Part shown: positions 6,801-37,771 of the stretch, piece by piece
How the letters are laid out: each line of letters opens with the position of its first letter
Numbering within the stretch: the stretch's first letter is position 1
NCBI RefSeq assembly: GCF_964355755.1
Contig: NC_092677.1
Coordinates: forward strand, 25,035,175-25,099,174
Direction of reading: 5' to 3'
From: Antedon mediterranea
Taxonomy: Eukaryota; Animalia; Echinodermata
Length of the DNA: 64,000 nt
Position numbers and translations under genes: made by a program
The notes under the pieces: generated by a model
The model's input: the letters and a program-made list of their open reading frames with translations, nothing else
Told to the model about the DNA's origin: nothing
The model's database searches: none

Positions 6801-9800
6801 TTCCCGCAAATAATGTCACTTAATAATAAGATGGACACAGTCGAACGAAGAAAGTCGTTTGACGTTATGCCTATTTATAGGCCTACTTTTTCCTATTATT
6901 AGAAACTTACATTGAAATTTCATGTAAAGAATTGGTCATTCATCCTTCTTGTAAAGTGATAAGACAACGTGGTGCAACGTAAAATTAACATTTTGTTTTT
7001 ATTATTTGTAGGAAGTTGGAAATTTATATGATATGTTTCATACAAGAAATAACCTTCATAGACGTGCCTGTCAACATAAAGTTACAAAAGTCATTGAAGT
7101 GATGTAAGGCCGGCTATATGCTTTTATAGTCCTATTGTATACATTTCTTTTCATTGTAGTTTGAATTGTTCCATTACAGGCATTAAAAAGGTCTACTGTA
7201 ACCAAGGAAATATTTCCTCCATGCTGTAACAGTGCTTGAAGTCGGAAAACAATGATCATTACTGAAAACAATATTTTCATTCCGAGTTTAGAATTTCATA
7301 CTCAAATTCTATGATTTTATTTTTCCAGTAAGTTTTCCCAATATTGTAAATAATGTTTGAATAAAAATTAATGAATAGACATGGTTAACATACCAGGCAT
7401 GAAAGGGCGTATAAGGTGAGTGTCCCCCGGCCTCTGAAAGCTTTTTATAATGCCACGTACGTCCAGTTGTCACTAGTATAATATTTAACTGAATACCGTA
7501 GGCTATTGCAAGTAAAGCTTGGTTCCCACTAGAACTTAACGCAAGGACGTAAACGCAACGCAAGCGTTTTAACCAATGACAAGCGAAGTTATAGACAGTT
7601 ACCAATCACAAGGGAATAAGCCATCGCTTGTGATTGGTCAATTTACTTGCGTTGCGTTACGTCCTTGTGTTGCGTCGCTAGTGGGAACCACGCTTAAGTT
7701 AAATACAAGCCAAGGTATGTTAGATACACATCGGATGACTGAGAAATGCCATGTTTTGTTTGTGGTATACGTAGGATTGTTGATGCGTTGGTGAAGGCAA
7801 ACAAATACCTATTGTTTAAAGGAACAGATGAAAAGGACTTTACAATGTCGGAAGCTATTGAGGATATGACAGCCTATACAAAAATGACAGATAATGTCAT
7901 GTACGACATATTGAATACATCAGACGAGAACCTGTTTCCTGCTCGCAAAATCATCCGGGACATCCTAACGAGGAACCTGTATAAATGTGTTGGTCAAACT
8001 AACCCAAAAGAAAACAAATTGCTTCAGGTAAGAACACACAAGAAACATCTTCAAGAAACGTTTCAGTGTCCACGTAGCTATAAAGCTTTGTTCCCACTGG
8101 GACGTAACGCTAGGATGTAAACGCAACGCAAGCGTGTTGCCCAATGACAAGCGTCAGTTTGAATAATCCATCGCCTGTCATTGGTCAACTAACTTACGTT
8201 ACGTTACGTCCTTGTGTTGCGTCTCTGTAGTGAGAACCAAGGTTAAAGGGCTAATCCAGTTTTCTGGATTGTAGCAACCACCACGGATCGTTTTTTTGAG
8301 AAAAAGTTTTGAATGATTATTAAATAATGCATTTGATTTTACTTTTATAAAGGAATCTATTCCGGAATATAAAAAAGAGCTTTTAGAATGTAACACGAAT
8401 AATCTGAAGCCAGAAAACTTGGAGTTTCATGTAAGTTCACATTTGGTTCAATCTTATTGTCGACAATTGGTTTAGCAGCTATACTATAATAGCTTTGATG
8501 ATATTAAGAATAATTTGATTGGTCAATATTCTAAGATTAGGTATGTTTTATTTCATTAGCTGATTGATTATAATTATGGGATGGACAGTGAGGATCCTAT
8601 CGAATCCGTTGGATTTTATACGAAACACAATCCTGATAAAGCATTTAAGATTCGCAAACATGAGGTGTGTAAAACTATACTTTATTTTTTTCTTAAAGAA
8701 CAAAAATGAACCTCTGAGACCTTACCTAGCGTTGGTGACGTAGGCATACACTAAAAAAATACGGGGGAAAAAATAATAAATTGAGGTTGGAATGAATGTA
8801 TGTGTCTTATATAATAGTTTATGGTGAAAACGAGGCTAGATATTAACACACCGTTTGAGATTTGAATTCTCATAAATAATCATCTTCCCTCAAGAATATA
8901 TAAATTTTAAACCTTGACTTAAGCTCTGTCTACACTGTCAAACTAGTTTGACAAAAAAAAGTGTTATGTTCACACATGGTAGTGATATGCCTAAATATGG
9001 TGGTGATATGACATCATCATGTCCATGGGCACATCACATTTTTTTGTCACATAAAGTTTGATAGTGTGGACAGAGCTTTAGACGGCCTTTGTATGTTTTT
9101 TAAACAAACTACCAGTTAATAAACAAAACAAGTTTGAATCTCATCTTTGTTGAACGACGGTTGTAAACCTACATAATATACATGTTTCGGGAAGCATTTC
9201 CCTAGTGTGAAACTATATTCACATACGTTCATCTTTTGTACGCTCTTCATAACAGGTATCAGGTATGTTACCAGAGAAAGTTTCAGAACAGCAAATACGG
9301 TTGTACTGTAAACTATATGACGAAAAAAGCATTCAGGATGCAGCTACTTGCTTTAAACGATGGTGTGAAGGAAGAGGATGGAAATACATGGTAGGGCCTA
9401 AGGGCTACAGTTTAATTTCACGGTTTTTGTGTATATGCGTTTAGGCAAATGGTTTCTGTTGAAGAGGTGATGTGTTTTCTTTAGGCTATTCATAACAATA
9501 CTGGGAGTTGTAACGAGGCTAGTAGGCATACTTGTGTGTGAAGAAGAGTTCCTTATAACCAGAGATCCGCCCCTGTGTGCGTTTGGTATGTGTGTATTGT
9601 AGACCTTTATAGGCATGTTCATTTTGTCTTATTATCAACATTGTGTTAGGCGTGCATGTGATATATCATCATTAGGCCTATATCTTACAACATTGATCAT
9701 ATTTCTTCCTCATGGAATTATCCTTTTGTATATTTACTGTAGGAAGGAAATGTGGAACCGGACCTTACTCCGTACAAGACAAATCAAATTGCAGATCGTC

Positions 9801-9844
9801 CAGAGCAGGTATCTACGGTCAAAAAGAGACTTATGAATGAATAA
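854..9844 (+). CDS. SAMHD1: SAMHD1-like dNTP triphosphohydrolase, copy A (SAM + HD domain), 14 exons, about 578 aa
   Basis: Exons with GT-AG boundaries and consistent phases: 854-989, 2225-2291, 2430-2499, 2837-2997, 5376-5491, 5677-5747, 6236-6370, 6450-6665, 7012-7103, 7775-8027, 8353-8430, 8560-8664, 9256-9390, 9743-9844 (sum 1737 nt, open). Motifs: MSPPAKRSK (NLS-like); SAM domain (WTVDNV..L...[20 protein letters not shown]); IFNDPIHG; [10 protein letters not shown]; HNRFEHSLG; GLCHDLGHGPFSH; NGIDVDK; [12 protein letters not shown]; C-terminal TPYK. Confidence 0.95.
1378..1900. repeat. Tandem repeat of about 120-125 bp, about 4.5 copies, in SAMHD1-A intron 1
   Basis: Core CCACACTAGTAAGTTTTTCTTTGGTATGCGACGT..TGAATTGTGA recurs near 1387, 1503, 1630 and 1752, and degenerately near 1840-1880. 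Confidence 0.85.
1992..2028. mobile_element. 37-bp palindromic micro-element or transposon footprint with 7-bp target-site duplication
   Basis: CAGGGAGTT...AACTCCCTG flanked by CTATACC at 1985-1991 and 2029-2035. Confidence 0.6.
3078..5148. mobile_element. Non-autonomous foldback / Mutator-like (MULE) element with tandem-repeat inverted arms
   Basis: Left arm (GGACAACTACCCCC)n at about 3085-3350, right arm (GGGGGTAGTTGTCC)n at about 4490-5140. 9-bp direct repeat CGGGTTTAG at 3069-3077 and 5149-5157. 9-bp TSDs are characteristic of MULEs. Confidence 0.8.
3421..3849. mobile_element. Nested MULE-like MITE with internal minisatellite of about 22 bp
   Basis: TIRs GGGTGTTTCGAAACTAGAGACCCGAGACCAGAGACC / GGTCTCTGGTCTCGGGTCTCTAGTTTGAAACACCC. 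9-bp TSD GTTTTTAAC at 3412-3420 and 3850-3858. Internal (GGGTCTCCCTTTTCGTATAGTG)n. Confidence 0.85.
5777..6100 (-). mobile_element. Possible 3' end of a LINE/SINE with (TTGAA)n tail
   Basis: ATTCAATTCAATTCAATTTATTT reads on the minus strand as AATAAA followed by a TTGAA microsatellite tail. The inner boundary is uncertain. Confidence 0.35.
7516..7694. mobile_element. MITE family B (PIF/Harbinger-like)
   Basis: TIRs AGCTTGGTTCCCACTAG...CTAGTGGGAACCACGCT flanked by TAA on both sides. Related copies at 8084, 25858, 28128 and 35712. Confidence 0.8.
8084..8243. mobile_element. MITE family B copy
   Basis: AGCTTTGTTCCCACTGG...AACGCAACGCAAGCG...TAGTGAGAACCAAGGT flanked by TAA. Confidence 0.75.
8922..9077. 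mobile_element. MITE family A (PIF/Harbinger-like, about 150 bp)
   Basis: TIRs AGCTCTGTCTACACT.TCAAACT...AGTTTGATAGTGT.GACAGAGCT with TTA flanks. At least nine copies in the window. Confidence 0.85.
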
Positions 9845-10109
9845 AAATGTCTTTAGACATTTCGGATGTACAGGGGTTGTCAAGTTCCTGGTGGTGTCCA
9901 CCATATGATTCTGACGTCATCCTCTAATTGTGATGAGTTGCACATTAAAGGATTCAGTTTTTTAAACATTTTTTTGGAATATTTCGTAATGTATTAAACA
10001 ATCCTTACAAGAATGAGAGGGGGAATATAGAATTGGAACGTATCATTTCCCGTGTATCCGCCTCTATTTATGCCTCTATATTTTTAGTAGTATCGTATGT
10101 TAATTTTAT

Positions 10110-11298
10110 TTTTATTTATTTTTTTTTTATTTATTAGGTATAACACTCAAAATGCAACAAAAGTTGAAAATCTTATGAGTTTACAAAAGGAACAACAAAA
10201 AAACCGAGATAAAGATATAAAACAATAGGCCTATACTAAAATTGACATAAAAACAAAACCAATTAAAACATCATACAAAAATATAATATGCACAAATTTA
10301 AAATTAATGATTATTATTAGATCTAATTAATAGAAATTCAGAAATATATACAAGTTTAAAATTATTCATTATTCATTATTTAAAAAGTCCACTTAAAATT
10401 TAAATTAAAAAATGTCATTACTTCCAAGGATCAATACAATTACTGTATTATTATTTATTTAAAATTCTTATTGCACTAGGAAGAGTTGAATTCCCATAAC
10501 GGTTAGTTCTACATCTAGGTACACAGTACTTGTTGAAGGAACGTAAAGTCCTCTCGGGCTTGATGTTCTCGGGTATCCACGAAGTGAAACGCCCAGATGT
10601 CACCAGACTGCTTCCAAATTTGGCAAGTACACCTAACCGTCTGTCTTGTAAAGATGTTATATTCAAGATTTCTAAAGTGTCTTGGTACCCCGTGTAGTTG
10701 TTATATCCGATGATGATCTTAAAGGCTCTTTTTTTAACAAATTCCAACTGGGTGCATTGCTGTTTAGTGATTGCTGAATGCCATAGAGGACTAGCATACT
10801 CCAGTAAGGGCCTGATGTACGTTATATAGGTAAAGACAAGATCATCCCGAGGTGCACCATATCGTTTTAAAATATATAACATAAACAAACGACGAGAGGA
10901 CTTGGATATCATTTCATTAACTTGATAATCCCATTTCATGTTCTTTTGTAATAAGACACCCAGTAACTTAACAACAGACTTCTCTTCTAGAACATTGTCT
11001 CCAATTGTTAACGGTACATAATTAGGTTCATTCCTCATAAAATGAACATGCATTACATTGCATTTAGCAGGGTTAGGTTGCATGTCATTCTCATCACACC
11101 AGGTCTGCAAAGTGCATCTAGATAACTCTGAAGAGAATGACTAACCAAAGTAGTATCACCACCTCGAGGTACACGATTAATTTCACCAATCGTCAAATCG
11201 TCCACGAACTTCCATCTCTCAGGAACGTGCTCTAATAGGCCATTTACCATCACCGTGAAAAGTATAGGCCCTAATTTGGTTCCCTGGGGCACTCCACA
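10110..11298 (-). mobile_element. 5'-truncated, frameshifted CR1/L2-group LINE (reverse transcriptase C-terminal half plus 3' UTR)
   Basis: ORFs 11053-11292 (PQGTKLGP...KFVDD) and 10451-11110 (W...NPAKC, KLLGV, YIRPLLEYASPLWH, RTNRY) overlap in different frames. The minus-strand A-rich tail is at about 10105-10135. Confidence 0.9.
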
Positions 11299-11429
11299 TT
11301 ATACTATACTATTATTACTACTATTACACAGTATAAATAAATTATTTATTATGACGTTTGCGGCTATTATTTTTATCTAATAGATGTTTATTGTTTTGTA
11401 TATTTTCATATTAAATAACAATCGTATTA

Positions 11430-11872
11430 ATGAATGATGATGATGATGATGATTACTGCCTCTCCGCTGAAAAGTCTGCCGACATTTCTGCTTGGGCTGC
11501 TCAGTATATCTCTTTTACCAGTTTCTTCCAATCGGATCTTTCATTGGCTAGTTGTTTGATGTCTTTCTTGGTTTTTAATTGTTCGGGATACTCGATATTT
11601 GTGTTCTGCTTATAAAGTCGTTGCTGAAAGTTATTAGTAGTGTGGTTCTCAGTCTTCCTCGAAATGTTATATTGGTAGTGTTGCTGAATAATAGCTTATT
11701 GCTGTGTTAGCTGGTGTACATGGTGGACCCAATAGTCTCCATCTTGCATCGACTATTTCTAACGAAATTGGTTTTGTTCCTGTCCTTCTGTATAAATTTA
11801 TGTTCGATATCCTGTCTGGGAAACTGATACCTATACTTTTGCGAAGTGGCTGTGTGTAAAATATGTCAAGTT
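11430..11872 (-). mobile_element. Degenerate 3' fragment of an RTE-like LINE with (CAT)n tail
   Basis: Minus-strand translation of about 11725-11870 gives LDIFYTQPLRKSIGISFPDRISNINLYRRTGTKPISLEIVDARWRLLG, matching the post-RT motif of RTE elements. (GAT)n at 11434-11453 is the tail. Confidence 0.7.
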
Positions 11873-12614
11873 TTATTAGGCCTAATGAATAAAATATAAT
11901 AAATTATTTTTCTATTCGTGTGTTATTTATTGGCTTTTAAACATTCTGTATCGAGTCAATTATTAGCATGCTAATGCAAAACTTTATTTATCGATAGTTT
12001 TCTCGATTTTCTTTTTACGTAAACTGTAAAAAAAATTGGATAGCGTTCGTAAAACAATTACTGTACGAGAGACGAGAATCATTATATTGTAGAGGGCGCT
12101 ATGCATGGAGTAGGAAACCTATAAAAGACGCGTGGAATCGCCATGCCGTTCTTTTGCTTCCTGGCTGCTTTGGTGAGAGGTGTGTTGTTTGGTTGCTTTT
12201 GTTAAATTGCGGAATAGAAAAGTTAAAAATAATGTTTTAAATTGTTGCATAACTATTGGTTTATGATAATGTTACTACAATATTGTATAATGCAACCCCT
12301 CCCTAGGCTAAGGCATAGGCCTATATCGAGTTTTCTGTATGATTTTTCTTCAACCACGTGTGACGTAACGTATTATAGCAGACCACGTGGCTGCATTGGA
12401 CGAGCTGCGTTTTTTTTTCGTACACAAGTTGGAGACTCCTTATGTGAAAGAGCCGAACTACTTCCTAACTAAACCTAACCCTCTAAATAAACTCTCACTA
12501 TTATTTATTAAGTAAAACGAAGTTGCTCATGGACATGGGATTTGAACCCCATACATAACCTAGGCCTACATCGACATGCAAAAGGTCATACAACATATCT
12601 AATCCATTTGACTA

Positions 12615-15600
12615 TAGTAGAGCAGTTAGTGACATGAGCTGTGCATTTTATTACCAAAGCATGAAACTTGGCACAAAGTTTCTTTAATATATATAGATTC
12701 AAAATATCAGGGGGTGCCAAGTGTCCAACGTCCGGTATGGCGGCCATCTTGATTTCAAAATGGCCACCATAAAAACAAAAAATGTTCATATCTTGGCAAC
12801 TATACACATTAGAGACTTAATTCTGGTCTCAAATTGTTCACAAACTATATATTGCTATTTGCTCTAATGAAAATTTTCGTCAAAAAATGACCGGAAATGA
12901 CGTTTCTTTCAGTTTGACCTTTGACCTCGTATTTGTATATCTCTGTAACTACTGGTCATTTTCAATCGATTTTGGTGTCATTTTGTTCAGAATAAATACA
13001 TTTATATTTGTAGTAATGAAACCTTTTCACATAAAATGACCGGAAATACAATTTATGACCTTTGACATTTATTTATTGATTTTTAATTATGTGAATATAC
13101 TGTATGTGGGTTTGTGTTGGTCTTAAATGCATCTAATTTTGAACTTTGACCTGATAGGCGTAATTATATTAAATGATTAATGGACTTAAATTGTATATGT
13201 TACATAAAATTGGTAAACAATGTGCTGGGTGGTACCATTAGTTCAAGGATGTTGGCACCTTCTGATTCGCTAAAAGTTTTAATAGTTTGACAGAGGAAAT
13301 AAGATACATGTTATGGAATACCGTAAAACCTCGAAAAGGTGATAGTATTCATGAGCTTCTTTTCGAGATAGACTGTATTTGAATGTCAAATGAATAGTAT
13401 GATGATCGTGTTTATATCAATATATTATTAATGACCTTACAAAGAACCCTTTATATTTCAACAATCAAGCCTCAGTTATTCTACAATTTATTGTTTTCCA
13501 AGTGGTAGGCCTATTTTGATTGCATCTTCTTTTTGTATGCTTCCTCGGTTAATATGGTCCTACCCCTCCTTCTTTGTCTGTAGATAGTCTTATACCCCCT
13601 TCTTTGTCTGTGGATGGTCTTATACCCCCCTTATTTGTCTGTGGATGGTCCTACACCCCCTTTTTTGACTGTGGATGGTCTTATACCCACTTCTTTGTCT
13701 GTGGATGGTCTTATACCCACTTCTTTGTCTGTGGATGGTCTTACATCCCCTTCTTTGTCTGTGAACGGTCTTACACCCCTTTATTTGTGTGTGGATGGTC
13801 TTATACACCCCTTTTTTTGTCTGTAGATGGTCTTACACCCCTTCTTTGTCTGTGGATGGTCTTATACCCCCTTCTTTGTCTGTGGATGGTCTTATACCCC
13901 CTTTCTTTGTCTGTTGATGGTATTACACCCTTTTTTTTGTGTGTGGATGGTCTTACACCCCTTTCTTTGTGTGTGGATGGTCTTACACCCTTTCTTTGTC
14001 TATGGATGGTCTTACACCCCTTCTTTCTCTGTGGATGGTCTTATACCCCCTTCTTTGTCTGTGGATGGTCTTATACCCCTTATTTGTCTGTGGATGGTCT
14101 TATACCCCCTTCTTTGTCTGTGGATGGTCTTATACCAACTTCTTTGTCTGTGGATGGTCTTACATCCCCTTCTTTGTCTGTGGACGGTCTTACACCCCTT
14201 CTTTGTCTGTGGATGGTCCTACACCCCCTTCTTTGTCTGTGGATGGTCTTATATCCCCTTCTTTGTCTGTAAGTGGTCCTATACCACTTTCTTTGTCAGT
14301 GGATGGTCTTACACCCTCTTCTTTGTCTGTGGATAGTCCTACACCCCCTTCTTTGTCTGTGGATGGTCCTACACCCTTCTTTGTCTGTGGATGGTCTTAC
14401 ACCCCCTTCTTTGTCTGTGGATGGTCTTACACCCCCTTCTTTGTCTGTGGATGGTCCTACACCCCCTTCTTTGTCTGTAGATGGCCTTACACCCCTTTCT
14501 TTGTCTGTGGATGGTCTTATACCCCCCTCTTTGTGTGTGGATGGTCGTACACCCCCTTCTTTGTCTGTGGATGGTCTTACACCCCCTTCTTTGTCTGTGG
14601 ATGGTCTTATACCCCCTTCTTTGTCTGTGGATGGTCTTATACCCCCTTTTTTGTCTGTGGATGGTCTTATACCCCCTTCTTTGTCTGTGGATGGTCTTAC
14701 ACCCCCTTCTTTGTCTGGACCCACTACTATGATTGATTAAATCAGACATTGTTTCTTGTATGATTAGGAGACCAAGACCTTCAAAGTGAAAGTCCACAGG
14801 TGGATGCCTAAAAAGGTCTTGTACAGAACAGTATATTGTAGGTCCATGTCACTAATTTGAGGATTACTTGAATAATTATATTGAGATGTCTTTTACGAAT
14901 TGATTTGGTTCGGATTTTGCTAAAAAATCAATGACTAGAGAAAATCGAGGAAAAGGATTCAGATGGTTTACAGCAAAGGCCCATTACCATAAAAATGGAG
15001 TACATTTTTTTAGATGCAACGAAAATGAACAAGAATTATCTGAGTTTCGGACTAATGAAAGTAGGTCTACTGCACAAATGCAGGATTAGTTTGTAGTAAG
15101 TACTTTGAAAGACGGTGTTCTCTTAACTCGTGAAAATGAGAACTTTCCGAACTTGTCTCATATGCAACATCAAAGAGGCCAACGAAAAAATATTTCCAAA
15201 TGGCATCTAACAATTCAATTCAACTTTTATTTCAGACAATTGTCCATATGGTATAATACATTACAAAAAAAAAAGAAAGGATGAAGGAGGAGAGAGGACC
15301 AAAACTTTTATCTAACGATTGACACATCACAGTTTAGCAAACAAGTCGGCATAGATGAGCTCAGTGATTGATGTTTCTCAGTGATCTGTCATACTTTACG
15401 CCTATCCTATCACATCAAAAGTAAAAAATTCAGAATAATTCCTGGTCATTTTTTCATTAAGTGTCATTTATTTCGGTAAAAAAAATTAAGTGCATTATAT
15501 CAATGTAAACCACATACAATATGTTCACATAATTATATATGTCAAAGGTTATAAATTGTATTTCCAGTCATTTTATGTGAAAATGTTTCATTACTACAAA

Positions 15601-16002
15601 TATAAATGTCTCTATTCTGAACAAAATGACACCAAAATCGATTGAAAATGATCAGTAGTTACCGAGATATACAGATAAGAGGTCAAAGGTCAAACTGGAA
15701 GAAACGTCATTTCCGGTCATTTTTTTACGAAACTTTTCATTAGAACAAATAGAAATATGTGGTTTGTGAACAATTTAACACCAGAATCAAGTCTCTACTG
15801 TTTATAGTTGCCAAGATATGAACACTTTTTGTTTTTATGGTGGCCATTTTGAAATCAAGATGGCCGCCATACCGGACGTTGGACACTTGGCACCCCCCGA
15901 TATTTTGAATCTATACACATCAAAGAAACTTTGTGGCATGTTTCATGCTTTGGTAATAAAGTGCACAACTTGGCTATTTTTATGGCGTTAACTGCTCTAC
16001 TA
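12615..16002. mobile_element. Non-autonomous Academ-like DNA transposon with TIRs of about 500 bp
   Basis: 12615 to about 13130 is the reverse complement of about 15490-16002 (e.g. GTGCCAAGTGTCCAACGTCCGGTATGGCGGCCATCTTGATTTCAAAATGGCCACC). Termini are TAGTAGAGCAGTTA...TAACTGCTCTACTA with a 3-bp flanking duplication CTA. TAG...CTA ends with 3-4 bp TSD are typical of Academ. Confidence 0.8.
13555..14717. repeat. 30-bp minisatellite, roughly 38 copies
   Basis: Unit TA(C/T)ACCCCCTTCTTTGTCTGTGGATGGTCT repeated with point variants. It produces many spurious ORFs. Confidence 0.97.
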
Positions 16003-16288
16003 CTAGGCCTAATCCATTTGACTAGGCCTATACAGTACCTGTACTGACGCAGACAGCTTGACTGAAAGCGTTTGCATTGGCGAATTGTAGTTTGGTCAAT
16101 TCCTATCTATATCACACTATGAATACAAAGCTAACGAATATATTCATGTTTATTTTGTGACGTTTCATGAGGGGTCCCCAACTAATGTACGAAAAGAAAC
16201 ATTGTGACTAGGCGCGAGACAGTACTGTTAGTAGGCCTACTGACTGGAATTGTGTTTCGTCTGAATGACTATCTTAGATTTCAGGTAG

Positions 16289-18315
16289 TAATAGGGATTT
16301 CAGGTGAAAAATTGATTGACACCCTATGAACTTGGAAATGATACCATATGAAGCAGAATTGAAAACAATGACAATGCTTTTTAAATTTTTTTAATCGGAC
16401 AAGGCGTTCAAAAGTTACATTAAAAAACAATACGAAAAAATAGATAGGAAGTCGAAGACATTGGTTTCTATGTTTTCTATTATTTTATTAAAAGCTAAAA
16501 GTGGTCCAAAACAGTCAACAAAATCATTGATATTTTGTACATAATTGGGTATATCTTTTTAACCATAAAGTGTACCGGCCTAATTTTTTCAACAGTTATT
16601 AATATAATGTAAATACATAATGTTCAATAAAAATGTTGCCAAAAAAATCATAAATTATTGTTTTATTAATACATAATGAAACTATGTAATATTTGAATGT
16701 AATAAAATACATAAAATCTAACATAGCTCTTTAATTATTACTCACATTATGCCTATTTTTTTACCAGTTAATTGTATAATATAATTACACAATTTTTAAT
16801 AAAAATTCTATTAAAAATATGTTTTTGTTGCCATGGAAACGTGTAATAAAATAAAAATATGACATTTAATCGCAAAAATACATAAAATCTAACATAGCTC
16901 TTTAATTATAACTCACATTATGCCTATTTTTTTACCAGTTAATTGTATAATATAAATACACAATTTGTAATAAAAATTCTATTAAAAATGTTTTTGTTAC
17001 CATGGAAACGTGTAATAAAATGAAAATATGACGTTTAATCGCAAAAATACATAAAATCAAAGATAGCCATTCGTAATTGTAATGTTGATAAGTTTATCAG
17101 GAAGCAGTAAGTTTATGTAGATCTAAAGCTGAAATACCAACAGCTTTAAGAAAATCACCAGGAATATCTTCTTCCATGTTGATAAATATTAATTACAAAA
17201 AGTTCACTTTTATTTTTATATGAAAATAATCGGTATTATTTAAAAAAAATAAATATTAACTGGAAAAAACACATAGATTTTTATAGCAGTTTTTAAATTA
17301 ATCAATTAAAACTAAAAACCTACAAAATATGATGTATTCCTTTCATTTTTTATAAAAAAACATAATCCTCAATTAATATAACCAAATAATACCCCTTAAA
17401 AATAAGTGGACCTGTCCATAATGTATTTAACTTTCATTGTACGGACGATTCCATTTACATTAATAGGGATGTTAAGCATTTCAAACTAATATGTTTTAAA
17501 ACACTTAAAGTACCTATTATTATTTCTTCGGAACGTTAGGAATAGGAAATATATTAATCATAATTATAATCAATGTTGGTTAAACTATAATTTATATAAG
17601 ACTTAACCTCCGTTAAGTAAAAATTCTACTGGCAGTCCTGTGCAGGCAGGCACAGGCTAGCCTCAGCCTGAGACAATGGAACAAGTGGACTGTGGCTTGA
17701 GAAAGGAAAAACATGTGCCTACTCTTTTCTTTTTCCGTTCATCAATTCTCAACCAATTAAAGATTTTAACAATAGCTACTTTAAACATTATATTTTCATA
17801 TTATATGTGTCTTTGATTTAAAATATTCCATCAACCTACCGAAAAAACGAAGATTATTTTTGAAAGTCCACCAATTCTGTTCTAGACATCGTATAAACCT
17901 GGGACATGCTTTGTTTACAAGCTAAAGCCCATGCCTTTCACTTAGGAAACCAATTTAATTGTCAATCACCTCAGGTTGTCACGGAAACTCCAATCAAAAA
18001 GCATCATATTTTTAGATCTCCAAAAATGGGCGGTCATAAACTGCAAGCAGGAATTTCCCTCATGTTCATGAGGTGACCAGCTGGATAGGGTGTTAGTAAT
18101 CTTGTTGTATTTCATTGAATAATTGATATTTCCGCGAATTGTCTACAGCACTTGAAAGTAGACATGTGTACCTTTCCAAAAATGTATTATTTGCCCAAAA
18201 CATATTAATCTAATAATTAAAAAATGGCACTTCAAAATGGTCAATTTTTTACTTTAATGTGCTGCCTGTGTGTGTGTGACCTCAAGCTGTAGCCATGCAA
18301 CTGAATACCCTAGTA
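16289..18315. mobile_element. Probable non-autonomous DNA transposon with short imperfect TIRs and an internal duplication of about 170 bp
   Basis: TAATAGGGATTTCAGGTG at the left end versus CAACTGAATACCCTAGTA at the right end, flanked by GTAG/GTAA. Superfamily uncertain (CMC/Chapaev-like is a guess). Confidence 0.4.
16705..17060. repeat. Tandem duplication of about 170 bp (2+ copies)
   Basis: AAAATACATAAAATCTAACATAGCTCTTTAATTAT...CCATGGAAACGTGTAATAAAAT begins at about 16705 and 16875, and partially at about 17044. Confidence 0.9.
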
Positions 18316-19629: not shown

Positions 19630-21003
19630 GTTTACAATGATTAGGTAATATCGCCCCAGTCTGATTTCTATGACTGAATGATTTTTATGAGAAACGGCAA
19701 TTTTACAAGTAAAATTTTAGGAATAATTTGTATGAAATCCAATAATAGTTCTATTGTCGGCTGAACATATTTAAACGTAATCTCTCTTCTTTTTACAGAT
19801 TCTGTGATATTATTACAATACGAGTAAAAAGGTAATAGATTTGAAAGAATATGAAACAAATATAAAAAGTGAACATTTTAAAATACAATATATTTATGTA
19901 ATGATGATCTTTATTGACAAGCATATATCTGATAAATGATGTTGACAATACAGAATCTGATCATGTGTAGCAGTACAGCAACGATTGGTACAAATACAAG
20001 GCATATATTTATAGATTTTGTTTCGTTTTTTAGTTTGAAATATGTCTCAATGTATGAAGTTGATGAACTGCTAAAAGTTGAAAGGGCATTTAGATATAGT
20101 AAGTGATATATTAAATGTATACTTGAATTTAAAGTAAACATGCACATTCTGCCTTAATCTTTCAGTCTAGGCCATCTGCTCATGCACTGCAGCTAATACT
20201 AGGCCAAGGTAAAAAGATAAAATGCAAAGTCTTTACATGTATGTTGTAACTATCTATGGTAGTGATTATAAAAATGTCTCGTTCGTATGATAACGTGATT
20301 ACTCCCTATAGCTTCTGAACTGTAGATATTCATGCTCTTTGTATATATAGGCTTGTAGTTGTTGAAAAATGAGTTTTTAAAATATTTTTCCGCAGGATAG
20401 CGTGTTGGTAGTGATGCATATTGTCAATTGTCGCCAAAACGAACAATTTCAGATTCAGTAAGAAAGCAAATTTTTTAAATAATATTTTGTGTTTGATAAG
20501 CCAACCTATTAGTATGACATCCTGGTTTTAAGTATGAAGCGGTTAGCAAATGAAATGATGAACATAATTACAGACCTGTTCTGAAAAAGATGAGGAATTG
20601 TTTGTTCTGATTTGTTTGCTAATACAAAAATATCCACCAAAGTGAAATTTTAGTTTCTTAAATCTCTAAAATTATGATTTTTCGCAGAAGTAGAATCTGA
20701 TCGGTTTTTGATCTGTATTTTAATGGCAATTCATAAGGCAAGTTTGTTTAATTTATTTATTCAACTTATTTATTTTACTAGATAATTTGATGCTTTTGTG
20801 AGTTTTAGAATGAGAAAAAAAAGACAAACATTAGCATCTAACTGATATTTCTGAGTAAGATTGCAATAGTCTTTTATCAGAGTCCCAGTACAATCTGCAT
20901 GTGTTATGCAATATGTTTGTGTCGTTTACAATGATTAGGTAATATCGCCCCAGTCTGATTTCTATGACTGAATGATTTTTATGAGGAACGGCAATTTTAC
21001 AAT
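19630..21003. repeat. Near-identical direct repeats of about 78 bp (19630-19708 and 20925-21002) bracketing 1.2 kb
   Basis: GTTTACAATGATTAGGTAATATCGCCCCAGTCTGATTTCTATGACTGAATGATTTTTATGAG.AACGGCAATTTTACAA occurs twice. Confidence 0.85.
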
Positions 21004-22080
21004 TAAAATCTATTGAATTAGTTCCAATCTAATGCACTTGATTAACCAGGCTATTCATTCTTTTTGCAGCTTACCTGGTTATTTTATACAGAAGGGCAAA
21101 GCAAGCATCAAGCAAGGCAATAAAACCACTTTCGCAAGTAATTGAAATAATTTGCGAAAATTTCATGCCACGAATAATTGTAGGCCTACTGTACACAATA
21201 GCTTATGTATTAGCGTCTTTATAACACAAAGATTGTGCATTTACTTGTATTATTCAAATTTATGTTGCGGAGGTTTTTGGTTTTACAGTAATTAAGGATC
21301 CACAACTGCATTGTGATGGAACTGCCATGTAGTAATCTGCAACCCTCAGTTGTTGAATAATTGATAGTTATGTTACGAACGTCATGCTTAAATAAAGACA
21401 CAACTGCAAATTTGATGAGCTTGTGTTGCATTTGATTTTCCTTAGTACAATAGACGTTTTAGTGTATTGCTATCAATTTCAACATCAATGTATTGATGAT
21501 AATTTACATACAACCTGGACAATATATGGTAGAAAATAATAAAGTGCTTGCAACATTGTATTATTGATCGTCATTGTGATAATTCTTTGTAGTGATTAAT
21601 TCATGTAAAGCTTGGACCAATCAGAGACCAAAATCTAATCATGTATACTGTACATATGACTTGCCATTTATTATAAAGACCCATTCTATATTGAGAAACC
21701 ATTAGTTCATGTCCTATTCCTGGGCTGTTCATTGGATTTGAAGACTTTTTGACAGGTAAGCAATACCTTTCTCCCAGGTTACTGATATTGCATTACGTTG
21801 ATGTGACCCTACCTTACCTCGGCCAAAGACTGATCTGAACATAAACTTTTTAACACAACTGCGTGGTTAGTAATTTATGACCCGGTGCGTGTAATTGTAA
21901 TACCCTTTTATCGCTTATTTACAAGAAATATTTCTTACAAAAACGCCGCGCGACTATATTCTATTTAATAAGTTTAAGAAATAATGATTATCAATTATTT
22001 TTGTTTAACAATCCGTAGTAAACATTTTGTGTAACGTAAATATATATTCCGGGCGTTACTTCCCAAGGTCTTGTGACCAA

Positions 22081-22485
22081 CGGCGCAGATCCGTTTTTAA
22101 TAGTGGGACGTATAAAAATTAAATATTTTGCGAGCAACCTCAGGCTGAGGAAAGGCATGGGCCTGGTCGGGGTCCAGGGGACGAAGCCCCTTGGAAGCTC
22201 GGCTCTTTGAGTAATTTATAGATCGTTTCAATCGATTTCTGAGCACATACAAATTCCGCCCAGAAGAATATTTTGGGTTATGCACTTTTTAGGCACTGAT
22301 CCTGATGCCCCACTTGGTATATATTCACATAAAATATATATACTGTATTTGTATGTAGATACTGTATTTACATACGATATGTCGATAGAAGTCTTACTTT
22401 CCATTTCATTTCAACAATTTAATGATTTTGCTGTGTTGCAAAGTGGGACACGACAACCCTCCCACCTCTCCCAGGATCTGCGCTG
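22081..22485. mobile_element. hAT-like MITE
   Basis: Ends CGGCGCAGATCC...GGATCTGCGCTG, with internal GGGGTCCAGGGGACGAAGCCCC typical of such MITEs. No clear TSD. A related lone end, CAGTGGCGGATCCAGG, lies at 22551. Confidence 0.55.
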
Positions 22486-24239
22486 GTGCTTGCGATGACC
22501 CCAACATTCCATTTTAATTTCCCAGCCGCAGACAAATGTACTCGCTTATCCAGTGGCGGATCCAGGATTTTGTGAAAGGGGAGAGGGTGTGGGGATGTGC
22601 AACTGTAGAGAGTCCACTCTTTTTTGACGCTTTTTTCCCTAATTTTTGTCCTTATGATAAGGTGGGTGGGTGCGTTTTTTTTCGCGCTGTAGGCAGTTAG
22701 TGTACTATATTCAATTCAATATTGATATAAATACAGTATATAGTGGGTAGAAAAATAGGCCTGATTTTAGATGCAGTCGGCGCAGCCAGCCAGTAATAAT
22801 TGCTGTTCGTTGGACTATGGCTACGCCTACACTCCGCTAATCACTTCCAAAAATTCTACTTAAATTCAAACGGCAAGGATGTAAAAAGTGATGGTCACCA
22901 GTACTAGTTTCAAAGGGACACAAGGAATAAGTAGGCAATTGGTTGACTAATGAAACCAGGAATTGAATTAACATAACAATACAAAAAATAGCTAGATTGT
23001 GTCAAGGAGTGGCAAAAGAGACCAATAGCTTCTGTCGCCATATTAGGCGTGCCACTCCCAACAAAAAAGCTAAAACGTACAGTATAAACAAAAATATAAT
23101 AAAATAATTCAAAATTATCCATCGAAATTGAGCGTGACATATAAAAAAGCTGGACAGTTTAATTGAAAATGGTGCAGTTGGAACTCGAGTTGGAATATGA
23201 TTACCGTTGTCATCATCATTTATTGACACAATCCACCAAATTTTTACTTGTTCAAAAGTGACCAGATTGCGCCAGAGAGTCGGAATGTTGAGACGATCAT
23301 CGATTTCTCAGATTGCGAAGGTGTAAGACCAAGGCCTTAAAAATTAGCTTCGACAATTGTAATTTTTCCCGGAGAATTTACAAAAAGGACTCTTGGTGTA
23401 GGCCTACGGAACAGAAACAATTTGGCTTTGTGTAGGCCTAATTACAGATATTGCATTAGGCCTATCCCCTAATTTTCATCTTAATTCTAGAATCAATACT
23501 TCTAATATATACACAGTACTTTGGCAATAGAATATGAATAAACCATTATGAATTACTGTAATATAAACTAAAATATAACAAGTTCCTGCATATTTCAAAC
23601 ATTCCAGAAATCTATTTATAACAATTGGTAACCGGCAAATTTTGCTCCATATATTTCACTTAATATTCAAAAACCTTTTGAATATTGATGATTTGACACC
23701 TCTCCAATTATTGTATATATGTGAATTGTCACCCAATTTCAGGAACATGACACTTTGTGAGTAACCAATCATTAGTCGCAGGCAAATAATTGCACAATAG
23801 GTCTGAAGCCCTGATTATAGACAATCAATGTGCATTGTATATGAATATGTTTTCTGTATGGACACAAGTACAATGTGCATGCTATTTGTAGGTCTATTTT
23901 AATATACTTAACAATCTGCCTGGTTCCAAAAACAACAATACAGTATTCAACAGCTGTTACTACAAAAATTGCGTCCAACTGTTTAGATATACACATATTT
24001 GTATGGCACAACACACCTTGTTTTGGTGTTGAATTGAATTTACTGAACTGAAAATAATGTCTAGGTAACGGTACCATTCAAACATTTTGCACTTTTGCAT
24101 TATTCAGCGGACTAGGTAAAGGTTACACTCTTGACGGATCTTCAATTAGAAGTCTAAAATTAAACATTTTAGCATTGGTTTCATTTGAGTACTCGATTAT
24201 GCTAATTAATCATATTTGGGGTAAATTTTGAGCGTCCCT

Positions 24240-24508
24240 CCTTAGAGTAGGTACAGCTAGGTCGGAACTTGAGGCTCCCTAATTGACATTCTGTACCTCG
24301 GACCCCTTGTACTTGGAATGCTAAACACATCTCCATTTTTAATAGTTTTACATTTTTAACAGTATTTTTAACTTTTTATCTTGTATTTTTAATCTGTTAT
24401 AATACTGCACGTTTTTAAATTGTTGCAATACTGTTGTTTTATTCTACCAAGCAAAGTGAATTTCCATTTTTATGGACAAATAAAATTTCTTGAATCTTGA
24501 ATCTTGAA
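24240..24508 (+). mobile_element. Possible LINE 3' UTR with (TCTTGAA)n tail
   Basis: AATAAA followed by (TCTTGAA)3 at about 24479-24508, preceded by a T-rich UTR-like tract. Confidence 0.4.
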
Positions 24509-25399
24509 TTGGCTCCTGACTACCTGAGTGAAGAGATTGGCGAGTAGCCACGAGGAGCGTCGCGAAAACGAAACATTGAGACCTGCAGACTTATTGCACT
24601 GAGTTGTGCAATTAAAACGGTGAAGAAATTAAAGTCTAGAAATACTGGCTTTCATCAAACTTTCTGTTATCTGCTAAAATATTCCTGAATAACCTATACA
24701 CGATCCTTTACCATTTTTATTTATCAAATATTTTTTTTTTTTTTAGTATACGAAATACATTTTAATAGCGTTTTTAATAGTACATCCCCCCCCCCCCCAT
24801 TTTTTTTTTATTCATTAAAAAAAATACAACCATAACACAAAGTCACTTAAATATCAAGTAATAGGTATCAAAGTGATATGAACGTTTGATATTGATATTT
24901 CTTTCATTTCGATTCAAGCACGACACAATATAGCAAATTTGTAAAACTAAGAAATTAAACAGAGACAACTACAAAACAAGATAAAAAGCTTTTTACAACT
25001 ATAGTGGAGCCCATAAAAAAATTATATATAAAGTAATAAGATGAAATATAAAGTTTGTAATACAAAAGCAAATACTGTATTATGTTATTCAATAACTGAA
25101 GCATGTAACTATACATTAACATTTATTTATATTACTTAGCCTATGTAAATACGTGAACGTGATTGGTTGAAACTGCATCACATGACTACCGCTGCAAGGA
25201 TCGTAAATCGTATATATAATTTTCGCGTAATTATCGTGTCCCTGTCATTAATCATATAAATTCTCGAGTACGATGATATTGACTGTATACTATTGCAATA
25301 AACTTATAATAACGCAATACGTTTTCATTTCATTTAGCAAATACTAGCTTGCCTAAGAGAATAATTGGTCAAGAGTAAACCTTAAGTCATAGCTTTTCA

Positions 25400-28300
25400 A
25401 TGCCGAACCGTAAGCGAAAAACCAGAGGCTCTGGTGGTGGCCGTAAGTATGCATACATTCTGTACGCATAAGACTGACGTTTTTTTGTATTTTAAATTCA
25501 AATTGTGTCACCGAAAACAATGGTCGCATGATTTTAGATTTTAAAATATTACTGAATTGTATTGGAATTTGGTCCTGCCAAAAAGAAATTTGTCCTCTCC
25601 ACTAACTTTACTAAAGAGCTATTATCATTTGTTAATTGTTTACCTCTTTATATAGAACATAGTATGTGAGCGTGCACTGTGATCAATCACAATTACTTCT
25701 TACAAATAACTGGTGGTATAATGTATAATATAAATATTTTATGAATATGTTGTGATAATCGTACAGGGGTTGTTTATGTCTTCATTTTTATCATATTATT
25801 TTAGGAGGAAGAAAAAAACCGAAGGTTTTGAATGTAGGTATATTGGTTGATGTAATACTTTGCTTCCACTAGACGCAACGAAAGGACGTAACTTAGCGAT
25901 TTGACCAACCACAAACGATGAATTATTCAAACTGTGGCTTGTCATTGGTTAACTCCTTTGCGTTGCGTCTACGTCATTGCATTGCGTTTATGGGAACTAA
26001 GTTTAAACTAGGGCCTATTACTTTTCCAATCCTACATGCACATTTGTGTCTTTTTGTGTTACGAAGTTTGTGAAGGTAACGTTGTTGGAAGACGGACACA
26101 AAAGTTATGTAATCGACTCAAACTGCATCGATCACAAACCTTATACTAGTACAAAACATATGCCTATAGTAAGACCAAGAACCCCCAATAGTTACACACA
26201 ATTGTGACGTCCCGTCTAAATAGGCCTATAATCTAAAAACTATCAACAATACTTACGAATAGCCTGTGTATCAGCCGGAATTTTTCACCAAAACCTCTCT
26301 ACATGTGCTCAGCAAATATAAGTTACCGTAATTGATAATTTGTACCGTACTGTATTAAAACACAGTCTTGTATATGCAGACTAGGCATTTTACCAAGAAA
26401 TTAAATTTGAAAGCTGTTACCAACTAAGCTTTTTTTCCTGTAAAGTGAAATTGTCCAGCAGTTGCTGTTATTTCTTTCAGAAAATATTCAATGATCCTAT
26501 TCATGGAACTATTGAGCTACATCCACTGTGTGTTAAAATCATTGACACTGTGCAGTTCCAGCGCCTACGCAACATCAAACAGCTGGGTGGTTGTTATTTC
26601 GTCTTTCCCGGAGCTTCTCACAACCGATTTGAACATTCTATTGGGTATGGGTTGAGTCGTTGAAGAATTAGATTGTAATTTCAAGATTAAATTTGAAATT
26701 ACAGAAATAACATAAATCATTATGGTTTTTAATAAAATGATATTCAAGTTAGGTTGTTGAGCTTCCTCTATATTTATTATTGCTTACAATAACACAATGA
26801 AGGTTTTCTTAGGCATATATCAATAAAAAAATACAACAAAAGACAAAAAAAAAGAAAAAAAAAAAGAACAGAACTGATTTAAATGTTTTCAAAGAGTGAA
26901 TGATTTTAATTTGAAATTAAAAAAAAAAAAAAAACGTTTATTTTTGTTTTCATTTATTTGTAAAAAAACAGGATAACAATTAAAGTGGGGAAATGTACGA
27001 TAGATAGGATACTTATTTGATATGTCAATTCTACCAGTTTTGGTTGTGCGTGATTTGCCATTTTAAATACATAGAAACTAAAATGGCTTTAGCTTAATAA
27101 CGTTACCCATTAAAACCTTTCTTCTACAACATATCAATTTAAGCACTCAATTTCCTCATTTGAACCATCTGCCGACGAGTACACTTTTTCTGCAATACAG
27201 TATACACTAAGTAATTTAAGTTTCTCTTGATTCAGAGTATCGCATTTAGCTGGAAATCTGGTAAGATCTTTAAATGAAAAACAACCAGATCTGGGTATTA
27301 CAAAGAAAGACATTTTATGTGTAGAGATCGCCGGACTTTGTCATGATTTAGGTATGTATTCCTAACACATGGCTTTACAAGGAATATTATTGTTTATATG
27401 TGTTAATTATAATAGAATAACTTACTTTTATTTTGTTTATTTATAGGCCATGGTCCATTTTCACACCTGTTTGATAGAAAGTTCATACCTGCTATAGAAG
27501 GACAGAAAGTGTGGGAAGTATGAGAAATTGAAAATATTTAATTATCATATTCATAATTATAAAAAATCATACTGTATTTAATAATATGTTCATTATTATA
27601 AAACACATAGATAGTGCATTATTATTAAAGTATTATTTCAAAGATAAATTTCAATCAATTTCTTGTTTCTGTTTTAAATCTATACTAATATTATTACTTT
27701 GTAACTTTGTAGCATGAAGATGCGTCTTTGCAGATGTTTGATCACCTCATTAAACAGAACCCTGAAGTAGAAAATGAATTTAAGAGGCATTTGAATGATC
27801 AAGACAAAACTTTCATTAAAGAGTTGTTTTATGGCAAACTGAAAGTGAGTACTGTCTGAATTCTTAATCATTTTTTAATTGCTAATTGTCTATGGAAATA
27901 AAAGTAGTACAATTAAAATAACAAAAATCAAACTAAATAGGCCTACATTTGGTCATTATGCTATTATTTTATTATTTAAGAAATTCAAATTGGAAGAGAA
28001 GGAAATTCGAAAATATATTCTTGACCCATTGAAGAAAGTGAGTAAATTTATTAGTCACACAATTGTTATTATTCTTATACAGTGGACACCCGGGTCCCGA
28101 AAATAGAAACTTAGACACTGTCAGAAAAGCTTGGTTTCCAATAGAATAATTCTGCCGCAACAACGTTAGGAAATACTCTTCTATCAATGTAGCACAAGTT
28201 TAATAATCACGTTTGCGTCGTTTGCAAAGTAGAAAACGGTGACACTAAATTCGTTATGTTCTCACAGCACTTAGCGTCGATACGTCGCGTCTGCGTTCTT

Positions 28301-31300
28301 GCGTCGCATTCTAGTATAAACCAAGCTCAATTAGTTGTCCAGAAGTACCCCTTATGAAAATATTATGATGCACTGATTTAAACAGGAATAAAACAAACTG
28401 GTTTTTACGAGAGATGTCCGTTGAACTGTTTTGTTTACTTTTCCTCTAATGTTTAAATATGTATGTAATTATGTACTTTTAGTATTGTAGTTGAATTTCA
28501 TATTTGTTGTATTTTTTTATGATCATTCGTTTAAAATTCAAACAAACAAACAAGTGGTGTTACTACAAAAAGAGAAATAAGTTTGATCACATTTTATATT
28601 TTCTAATTGTTAAGAAATACGACTTGGGGGTGAATTCTGACACACTAATGAAAGTAAGTAATGTCAAACTGTAAAATTAAATAATATAATAAAATACATT
28701 TGTTTTTAATATTTTATGGTTATTATATCTAATATTTACAATTGATTGAATTGATACTACATATCAAAATATTGGGCTATATTAAAAATGTCTTTTAGTT
28801 GCAAAAAATAAAACTATATTATAATTATCTTTTTTAAGAATGTGAGAGAGGAAACAAATAAAGTGGTAAGTATTGACCCACTAAAGTGAGTACTGTAAAA
28901 TCTTGTGAAATTAGATACGGTAGAATTTACTGGTTAGGCTAAGTAGTATATTGATACTGTCAATTAATTACATCTTGAATATATTTGAATGTGTATTGTG
29001 GTACTGATAGCAATAAATCATATAAGTTGTTTAAAACAGGTTCAGTATTGTAAATTTTATTCTATTATTCAATTTTTAAAGAAATATGAAATGGAAGAGA
29101 GGTACATTATAAATGTGATTCTTGACGAAATGAAAGTGAGTACTGTTAAATTAAATAATGCATAGGCTTATAAATTAATTTGTAAATTATTGATTTGAAT
29201 ATTTTAATGTCTATTGTGGTGGATAGCACTAAATATCGAATAACATTTATATAATCATGGTGCTTTACATAAATTATAACATTGCTTGAAATTAAGTGTC
29301 TTCACTTGTTAATGTTATAGGCAGATTATTCCATATTTTGAGTCCGTTTTAAGATTACTTTTAAAATTTATAATTCACGTGGTTTGTTGCTATTTCAAAT
29401 TGTTGATATTCTTTTAAAGAAATCTGAATTGAAAATAACACCGGAGAAAATTAAGGAATTGATTATTGAGCCACTGAAGGAAGTGAGTACAGTAACGTGT
29501 GTTATTGTTTTTTTTATATAATGAATGTAATACTGTATTACACAAATAACCAAACTAAACCATTCCTAAACTACCGGTACATGTTTTCTTTACAGTACAG
29601 TAGGCCTACAGTTTTATAAAATTAACTATTATTGTTAGTGACACTAAAATAAATAATTATGAATTAAAAGACGTTTGTTATATAATTTCAATACAAAATC
29701 AACGACGTTGACGTAGAAAACAAATTATTAGGCTAATTAAATAATTATCCCAGGATTAGACCCGGACAACAATAACGTTTTTTACCCTTTCACACCCTCT
29801 ACCACCAAATCATGTATCCAACTAGTTCTACGTCGTCTTTCTAAATTGTACATCTTACCAATCAGGTGTATTTTGGATATAATATTTTTAAAATGATTAA
29901 TTTAAAAAAAAATCAATCAAAATATTATCAGTATCTTGATTCAGTGGATATTATTTTTCAGAAATTTCCATACACATATAAAGGCAGAAGTAAAGAGAAA
30001 CACTTTCTGTACGAGATTGTTGCAAATAAACGCAACGGAATTGATGTTGATAAATGGGACTACTTTGCACGAGATGGTCATATGCTTGGATTCTCAAACT
30101 GTTTTGATCACAAGCGCTTAATGAAACTTGCAAGCGTTTTGACAGTGAAAGACGGTGAAAGTAAGCAGATATGCTTCCGAGACAAGGTAAAGTATATAAA
30201 GAATGGAGTGGATGTAAGTGATGAATGTTGAAATTAGTGTAAGGATATCTTGAGTAAGGGAATATGGATTTGTATGAAGAATTTCAGCTACGGTACATCG
30301 AGGAAATTAGGGGTTATATGCATGGTGATTTGTAAGTAAGAATACCCTTTTTGGGTTATGCGATGTACTATTTCCTTTTAATTGTTTTGTTTATTCAGTC
30401 TAAAATCAGTAGTAGAAATCTTTAAAAAAAAAAGTAAAATTCTCATTTTTAGGAAGTGGGAAATTTATATGATATGTTTTACACGCGACATCTTCTTCAT
30501 AGAAGAGCCTGTCAGCACAAAGTAAACTTGGTCATTGAAAGAATGTAAGTTTGGTATAGGCTAAATAGTCTATTCCTTATACTCTAAATAATTATACTCA
30601 TCATCAACTGACAACTGATCAAACAATTACTATATGGTAATTTTTTTAATCTCAAACATAGAAAAATAAGAAATTAACCTGTGAAATTTTAACTTTAAAG
30701 TATATGAACAAAAAACATGAAAGTGTTCCAAACTAAAACAAAACAAGAGTGTAAAACTGGAAAATGAGAAAATCATTTAAATGAGAATCCTCCCATTTTT
30801 ATTGAGTGGAAAAAAAAAATAATAATCCTTTACTTCACTGCAATCTCAGTAATCTTAGTGAGTGGACATATTTTACTATTGAGAGTGGTTTAAGCCTGTT
30901 TTTCACTAGGCAAATGTATCCCTCAATATTTACTATCTCACCCAGTTTCAGAACACATTTTAATAGTTTTATGTTATATTTAGGATTGTTGAAGCATTAG
31001 TTCTAGCCAATGAACATCTAAAATTGGAATATAAAGATGGGTAAGTAAAGCCAGTTTCTACTATGCAAATATATTTTCATGTTGAAAATGAAACAAAAGA
31101 TGGAAATATAAATTTACATGTGCAAAAATCAACGATCAATTTTGAGTGATTAGAATTGCCTGAATAAAAGCAAAACAGGCCTAAAGTGCCGGTCATAGGA
31201 ATATTGTTGTGAGAAGGTATTACATTTAGTATAGATTTTAATACTAAATCATTATTAGGAAAAACATTATACACTCTAATAATTTCAGAGAGACAACAGT

Positions 31301-37676: not shown

Positions 37677-37771
37677 CGGGAATCCTACTGTACATACAAC
37701 CTTTTTTTGATGCCTCAAATTTTATTTTTATACCCAGCCTGCTTAAATAAAATGTGATTTTTTAATAGAGA

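What the first reader, a model, noticed from the sequence alone, without database searches (positions are those of the whole stretch)
7012..30544. Both SAMHD1 paralogs have Cys at the sugar-selectivity position Tyr374; copy A also changes Leu150 and Trp313
Seen: both copies read LHRRACQHK (exons 7012-7103 and 30453-30544). Copy A also has IKQMGG and [11 protein letters not shown], while copy B keeps IKQLGG and [11 protein letters not shown]. Metal ligands (H, HD, D) and catalytic His residues are intact in both. Known: human SAMHD1 has LHRRAYQHK, IKQLGG and [11 protein letters not shown], and Leu150/Tyr374 line the pocket that discriminates against 2'-substituted nucleotides. Inference: these enzymes may have a relaxed or shifted substrate range (rNTPs, modified nucleotides). 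The Cys probably predates the duplication.
Basis: partly seen in the sequence, partly recalled or inferred. Interest (0 to 1): 0.72.

Follow-up and report, generated by a model that had tools for sequence, protein, structure and literature searches.

The report
Recurrent Tyr-to-Cys switch in SAMHD1 duplicates
Two intact, spliced spare copies of the nucleotide-destroying enzyme SAMHD1 in a feather star carry a cysteine in place of an active-site tyrosine, a swap that recurs in many other animal SAMHD1-like copies and likely retunes the enzyme rather than letting it cut RNA building blocks.

Summary
Both genes are intact and spliced and have Cys at human position 374; copy A also has Met150 and Ser313. 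They are spare copies: the same species encodes a canonical Tyr374 SAMHD1.

The sugar-relaxation reading is weak. Human Y374F/I/A and L150V/A are reported dead, Tyr374 stacks on the base, and a worm ortholog with Thr150 still rejects CTP. One origin of Cys before the A/B split is neither shown nor excluded (p-AU 0.116).

The stronger result is family-wide. Cys is 36 of 46 non-Tyr states among 458 HD units, needing 27 Tyr/Cys changes on a 237-unit tree. His never occurs and Phe once; nine other Tyr columns hold at most 3 Cys. Cys units keep their metal and catalytic residues.

Best reading: retuned dNTPases with weaker base stacking; no activity was tested. Nine paper searches found no report of Y374C. 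The scan earlier noted a clam SAMHD1 array with a similar "retuned" reading (unchecked).

The parts
854..9843 (+). Copy A: SAMHD1-like gene, 14 exons (854-989, 2225-2291, 2430-2499, 2837-2997, 5376-5491, 5677-5747, 6236-6370, 6450-6665, 7012-7103, 7775-8027, 8353-8430, 8560-8664, 9256-9390, 9743-9843), 578 aa, SAM + HD domain
   Evidence: Exons translate exactly to P0006 with GT-AG introns; Pfam SAM and HD; spliced contigs in run X5; AlphaFold model pLDDT 91.3, SAMHD1 fold
2936..2938 (+). Copy A Met125 = human Leu150
   Evidence: covered without difference by spliced X5 contig 2837-2992
6540..6554 (+). Copy A Ser283 (human Trp313) and Glu287 (human Ala317), four residues apart
   Evidence: Ser is 1 of 474 at that column, Glu 2 at column 317
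7069..7071 (+). Copy A Cys344 = human Tyr374
   Evidence: no difference listed in runs X3, X4, X5
25400..34026 (+). Copy B: SAMHD1-like gene, 19 exons, 573 aa, HD domain without SAM
   Evidence: Exons translate exactly to P0405, GT-AG introns, stop follows 34023; Pfam HD only; four GT-AG joints in run X5
27981..29482 (+). Five in-frame mini-exons of copy B (27981-28037, 28615-28653, 28839-28865, 29082-29135, 29420-29482) adding 80 aa; likely tandem copies of the 3' end of exon 6
   Evidence: In database model P0405; similar donor ends, 63% mean column identity; no RNA contig listed across them
30510..30512 (+). Copy B Cys360 = human Tyr374
   Evidence: X5 contig spliced 30544-30984 covers 42 letters of this exon with no difference listed

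Best explanation
Both genes are intact, spliced duplicates of a crinoid SAMHD1 that keep the metal centre and both activator sites and likely still hydrolyse dNTPs, with Tyr374Cys predicted to weaken base stacking and so retune affinity, rate or base preference while residue 150 would still keep ribonucleotides out. Shown: gene structure, splicing, residue states, a Tyr374 ortholog in the same species, and repeated Tyr/Cys change across animal SAMHD1-like proteins. From literature on the human enzyme: GTP and dNTP fill two allosteric sites, the tetramer forms, and the base is sandwiched between His215 and Tyr374. Inferred: that Cys copies are active, that Cys is fixed only where a Tyr copy remains, and that it is favoured over His or Phe because a small thiol leaves a working but looser pocket.
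For: All 15 metal, catalytic and substrate positions tested other than 150/313/374 are human-like in A and B. Only 5 of 119 strongly conserved columns differ in each copy, against 3 in the canonical copy. Cys units family-wide keep metal ligands (127/128 vs 706/744 in Tyr units), catalytic residues (128/134 vs 676/742) and substrate residues (232/234 vs 1285/1327). Column 374: Tyr 412, Cys 36, Leu 8, Ile 1, Phe 1, His 0 of 458; 27 Tyr/Cys changes, 17 independent pairs on starred branches; nine other Tyr columns have 0-3 Cys. In all 14 species where I checked a second same-species protein, it has Tyr. Tyr374 stacks on the base (PMC11074143). A natural change at 150 leaves CTP exclusion intact (PMC10485159).
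Against: Human Y374F, Y374I and Y374A are reported catalytically dead (PMC5207538; only text and legend seen, the S2 figure is an image), so Cys copies may be inactive on dNTPs. Met/Phe at 150 is commoner in Cys units (10/31 vs 1/183), hinting at a rebuilt sugar pocket, though the tree-paired test is not significant (median p 0.25). Copy A adds a unique Ser313 and rare Glu317 beside metal ligand Asp311. About 13 of 27 named Cys-bearing species were not checked for a Tyr copy. The 237-unit tree is FastTree with 90 of 234 branches open, and gene conversion in tandem arrays could inflate the count. No activity was measured.
Confidence: 0.45

Rival explanations
1. Shifted substrate class: losing the Tyr ring opens the pocket for bulky or modified bases, 2'-substituted sugars or rNTPs, and this has been selected repeatedly in duplicates. 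rNTPs specifically are the least likely part.
For: Repeated, site-specific Tyr/Cys change with no His. Neighbouring pocket residues vary more in Cys units (150/370/375 human-like in 70/101 vs 496/571). A 2'S-methyl group is modelled to clash with Tyr374. PMC7045340 and PMC7311409 credit both Leu150 and Tyr374 with blocking ribose.
Against: 21 of 31 Cys units and copy B keep Leu150. Paired tests for 150, 370 and 375 are not significant (median p 0.25, 0.25, 0.125). Worm Thr150 did not relax specificity. Human Tyr374 mutants lost activity rather than gaining range.
Confidence: 0.2
2. Catalytically crippled but useful proteins: Cys374 switches hydrolysis off while nucleotide and nucleic-acid binding stay, so the copies act as scaffolds or as damping subunits in mixed tetramers with the Tyr enzyme.
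For: Human Y374F/I/A dead. Allosteric residues kept in A and B. Allosteric sites can bind oligonucleotides (PMC7854603). A Tyr copy is present in 14 of 14 species checked.
Against: Metal and catalytic residues are at least as conserved in Cys units as in Tyr units, also on long branches (B end branch 0.5-1.1). A dead enzyme could be reached by many other changes, yet His and Phe are absent or rare at 374.
Confidence: 0.2
3. Near-neutral swap: Cys is simply the one tolerated alternative one base change away, and the copies are ordinary dNTPases under relaxed constraint.
For: Tyr to Cys needs a single transition (genetic code). Column 374 changes about as often overall as other Tyr columns such as 419 and 507. 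A and B sit on long branches.
Against: Canonical-looking orthologs of echinoderms, hemichordates, amphioxus and most vertebrates in the trees all keep Tyr. Phe, the usual tolerated swap at other Tyr columns, occurs once at 374, and His, also one transition away, never.
Confidence: 0.15

Closest known systems
Human/mouse SAMHD1 dNTP triphosphohydrolase (PDB 7ujn, 7a5y, 6txc, 6brg)
   Same: HD fold (TM-score to target 0.92-0.96 for most listed chains); metal, catalytic, substrate and allosteric residues; SAM domain and Thr592 equivalent in copy A; 54% (A) and 49% (B) identity over the HD part.
   Different: Cys for Tyr374 in both; Met150, Ser313, Glu317 in A; no SAM, no Thr592 equivalent and an 80-aa modelled insert in B; Cys522 absent (also absent in the canonical crinoid copies).
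Canonical crinoid SAMHD1 (P0010 Antedon mediterranea, P0009 Anneissia japonica)
   Same: Closest relatives of A (65% identity; 99* clade); all five crinoid proteins form one starred clade in the 16-row tree.
   Different: They keep Tyr374, Leu150, Trp313 and have short branches (0.04-0.11 against 0.35-0.44 for A and 0.5-1.1 for B).
C. elegans ZK177.8 (PMC10485159, PDB 6pwy)
   Same: Natural substitution at Leu150 (Thr) in an invertebrate SAMHD1.
   Different: Keeps the Tyr374 equivalent and is shown to reject CTP; it has no Cys there.
Uncharacterised SAMHD1-like paralogs of teleosts, oyster, sea urchin, anemone and lizard
   Same: 34 further HD units with Cys at 374 and mostly intact catalytic sets.
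   Different: Separate origins on the tree; no functional study found in nine paper searches.

Membership tests
SAMHD1 dNTPase | HD metal ligands H167, H206, D207, D311 | tested here: met
   both copies
SAMHD1 dNTPase | Catalytic and substrate residues H210, H215, D218, H233, Q149, R164, D309, K312, Y315, D319, R366, Q375 | tested here: met
   both copies
SAMHD1 dNTPase | GTP site AL1 (D137, Q142, R145, R451) | tested here: met
   residue roles from PMC7854603 passages
SAMHD1 dNTPase | dNTP site AL2 (V156, F157, R352, K354, N358, H376, K377, K523) | tested here: met
   A has Tyr157, a common state (170 of 437) also in the worm enzyme
SAMHD1 dNTPase | Pocket residue Tyr374 | tested here: not met
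   Cys in both
SAMHD1 dNTPase | Ribose gate Leu150 | tested here: inconclusive
   Met in A, Leu in B; a natural Thr keeps the gate in the worm enzyme
SAMHD1 dNTPase | SAMHD1 HD fold with C-lobe | tested here: met
   Copy A only: model pLDDT 91.3, Foldseek E about 1e-47 to human SAMHD1; B not folded
SAMHD1 dNTPase | N-terminal SAM domain | tested here: inconclusive
   Present in A, absent in B; absent in the P0009 entry and many homologs
SAMHD1 dNTPase | GTP/dNTP-induced tetramer | not tested
   No complex job sent; a pass would follow from likeness to solved tetramers
SAMHD1 dNTPase | Hydrolysis of dNTP, not rNTP, to nucleoside plus triphosphate | not testable with these tools
   Needs an enzyme assay

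The most novel reading that the evidence does not exclude
Tyr374Cys is a one-base neofunctionalisation switch that animals have thrown dozens of times in spare SAMHD1 copies, turning a dNTPase into a hydrolase for another nucleotide class (bulky or modified bases, 2'-substituted sugars, or an immune nucleotide), giving an unrecognised convergent enzyme subclass from cnidarians to lizards.
Probability: 0.2. Interest if true: 0.75.

Novelty: new variant of a known kind. Interest (0 to 1): 0.42.

Why it matters
Tyr374 lines the pocket that decides which nucleotides, including anticancer nucleoside-analogue triphosphates, SAMHD1 destroys, and the three lab mutants I found reported at this site are dead. 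Nature has repeatedly put one specific residue, Cys, there while keeping the catalytic machinery. These proteins are ready-made probes of what Tyr374 does and whether SAMHD1 specificity can be shifted. If they act on another nucleotide class, expanded SAMHD1 families of fish and marine invertebrates would have a role beyond dNTP depletion. If they are only attenuated dNTPases, the result is a tidy case of convergent tuning after duplication.

Tried and rejected
No whole genome is held for this window, so the gene family could not be counted and the distance to the canonical gene is unknown. Assembly error at the Cys codons: rejected. Pseudogenes: rejected, open spliced frames. Query bias as the cause of Cys enrichment: unlikely; among the cluster representatives other rare query residues occur 0-12 times (Ser313 0/151, Glu317 1/151, Val139 2/142, Val545 2/133, Met150 6/145, Lys339 12/152) against Cys374 22/150, spread over ranks 14-143; the region search does favour Cys and gave 5 of its 81 new units. 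One ancient Cys subfamily: rejected, 27 changes against 33.1 for shuffled labels (range 29-35), and 23 of 36 Cys units are nearest to a Tyr unit. One clade of all three crinoid Cys copies: rejected at p-AU 0.029 (group chosen by trait, long branches). A with the two canonical copies as a clade: not rejected (p-AU 0.418). The careful 35-row tree did not finish; its quick tree is used. Co-change of 374 with 150, 370, 375: same direction, not significant. The run search listed no holder on record as RNA; X5 is a guess supported by its spliced joints. No X5 cover was listed for B's mini-exons or A's Ser313 codon. A PDB search with a distant homolog did not show alignments to the fungal, worm or bacterial structures. 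Paper searches (9): SAMHD1+Y374C gave 0; searches gave no study of Cys374 or of such paralogs in listings or passages read. Earlier-findings search by sequence gave nothing.
Full report
OBSERVATION. Searches of single exons against solved structures align them to full-length human SAMHD1 and fix the numbering: Cys at 374 in both copies, Met at 150 and Ser at 313 in copy A. Copy A also has Glu for Ala317. Copy A is a 14-exon gene (854-9843) whose translation equals P0006, 578 aa with SAM and HD domains. Copy B is a 19-exon gene (25400-34026) equal to P0405, 573 aa, without SAM. Both proteins are named SAMHD1-like of the crinoid Antedon mediterranea. Run X5, from another sample and study than the DNA runs, has contigs that skip introns at the predicted GT-AG sites in B (four joints) and join exons of A; no difference is listed at either Cys codon. 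An AlphaFold model of A (pLDDT 91.3) matches human SAMHD1 at E about 1e-47.

CONTEXT. The same species encodes P0010, a SAM+HD protein with Tyr374, Leu150 and Trp313; it is not among the two genes found in this window. Anneissia japonica has a canonical copy (P0009) and a Cys copy (P0017, 248 aa). So A and B are spare copies. All metal, catalytic and allosteric residues tested are human-like in both, except Tyr157 in A and Thr125 in B. Of 119 columns at least 85% conserved in Tyr units, A and B each differ at 5 and P0010 at 3.

WHAT TYR374 AND LEU150 DO. PMC5207538 (passages and one section read; the S2 figure is an image I could not see) names Leu150 as the gate against ribose, reports Y374F/I/A and L150V/A as catalytically dead, and concludes Tyr374 may not be a steric gate. 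PMC11074143 (passages) has the base stacked between His215 and Tyr374, with the Tyr ring moving into the base's place after product release. bioRxiv 10.1101/296624 (passages) has Tyr374 contacting 2'S groups and Leu150 clashing with 2'R groups. Against this, PMC7045340 and PMC7311409 (passages) credit both residues with blocking ribose. PMC10485159 (passages) shows that worm ZK177.8, with Thr at 150 and Tyr at 374, still rejects CTP. The literature therefore gives little support for rNTP hydrolysis and raises the possibility of lost activity. PMC13519002, PMC12042053 and PMC7854603 (passages) showed nothing on variation at 374.

HOW COMMON IS CYS. Four searches returned 456 proteins (the best 120-150 of each, out of 264, 3902, 16437 and 437 hits). 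They hold 497 HD units, 458 with column 374 filled: Tyr 412, Cys 36, Leu 8, Ile 1, Phe 1. Among 50%-identity representatives Cys is 22 of 152. Thirty Cys units carry names: 23 teleost, 3 crinoid, and one each of sea urchin, oyster, anemone and lizard; 6 are unnamed or not looked up. For the tree, 447 units with enough coverage were thinned at 80% identity within each state to 237 (194 Tyr, 35 Cys; P0017 dropped for length), with columns 150, 313 and 374 removed. Tyr/Cys needs 27 changes (shuffled mean 33.1), with 17 independent pairs on starred branches. Several Cys units sit beside Tyr sisters at 83-95% identity. The spectrum is site-specific: the nine other columns with at least 60% Tyr have 0-3 Cys and mostly Phe (up to 42), whereas 374 has 35 Cys, 1 Phe and no His. 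His is also one transition from Tyr (genetic code), so plain decay does not explain 27 to 0. Cys units keep metal, catalytic and substrate residues at least as well as Tyr units (full set of 15 in 24/28 vs 323/366). In 14 of about 27 named species I had a second same-species protein to check, and all 14 had Tyr; the rest were not tested. Met or Phe at 150 goes with Cys (10/31 vs 1/183), but the tree-paired test is not significant.

ORIGIN IN THE CRINOID. A groups with the two canonical crinoid proteins (99*). B is a long branch: outside the ambulacrarian clade in the larger trees, inside a starred crinoid clade in the 16-row tree. A+B is not rejected (p-AU 0.116). Shared derived states are 9 for A+B, 8 for A+canonical, 4 for B+canonical. 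One clade for all three crinoid Cys copies is rejected at p-AU 0.029.

MECHANISM. Shown: intact expressed duplicates, kept chemistry residues, recurrent specific substitution. Inferred: they assemble and hydrolyse like SAMHD1, and replacing the ring with a thiol loosens the grip on the base, raising Km or changing base order, while residue 150 still bars ribose (0.45). Rivals: new substrate class (0.2), hydrolysis-dead binding or damping subunit (0.2), neutral swap (0.15). Trp313 faces no substrate in the papers read (0 mentions in two searched); Ser313 with Glu317 is private to A and may be a local repacking (inference). Assignment of K116, N119, H125, D330, R333 and K455 to allosteric sites is recalled, not from a call.

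VERDICT. Real, and a variant of a known enzyme. The window's own change is one case of a family-wide pattern that I did not find in print (nine searches of open-access text only). It is directly testable, but no function is shown. Interest 0.42.

Noticed in passing
window 27981-29482: Copy B's database model has five phase-0 mini-exons adding 80 aa after exon 6; their 3' ends and donor sites resemble exon 6's own end, suggesting serial duplication of an exon end. Inclusion in mRNA not shown.
   Followed up: partly
window 26519-26669: A low-depth contig in DNA run X1 differs from copy B at 18 listed places across exon 3 and the start of the next intron, with five amino-acid changes including the usual Pro139: a further B-like copy or a divergent haplotype.
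   Followed up: partly
window 869-7099: Eight exonic differences in other runs for copy A: four synonymous, four not (K6E, A11S, A194V, V354M).
   Followed up: partly
P0007, P0008, P0013, P0228, P0230, P0237, P0273, P0327: One clade (named members are cypriniform fishes) has Leu at 374, often in the first of two fused HD units whose second unit keeps Tyr.
   Followed up: no
window 37769-41887 and 45674-47531: Long ORFs of C2H2 zinc-finger genes; 39737-41887 ends in a run of 9-residue repeats.
   Followed up: no
window 10451-11140 (-): A 229-aa ORF that looks like the end of a LINE-type reverse transcriptase (recalled likeness, not searched).
   Followed up: no
window 3060-5150 and 13550-14850: Tandem-repeat tracts; the first lies in intron 4 of copy A and draws very high contig depth.
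   Followed up: no
window 43999-44802, 48155-48550, 48957-49469: ORFs of 267, 131 and 170 aa with no Pfam match.
   Followed up: no
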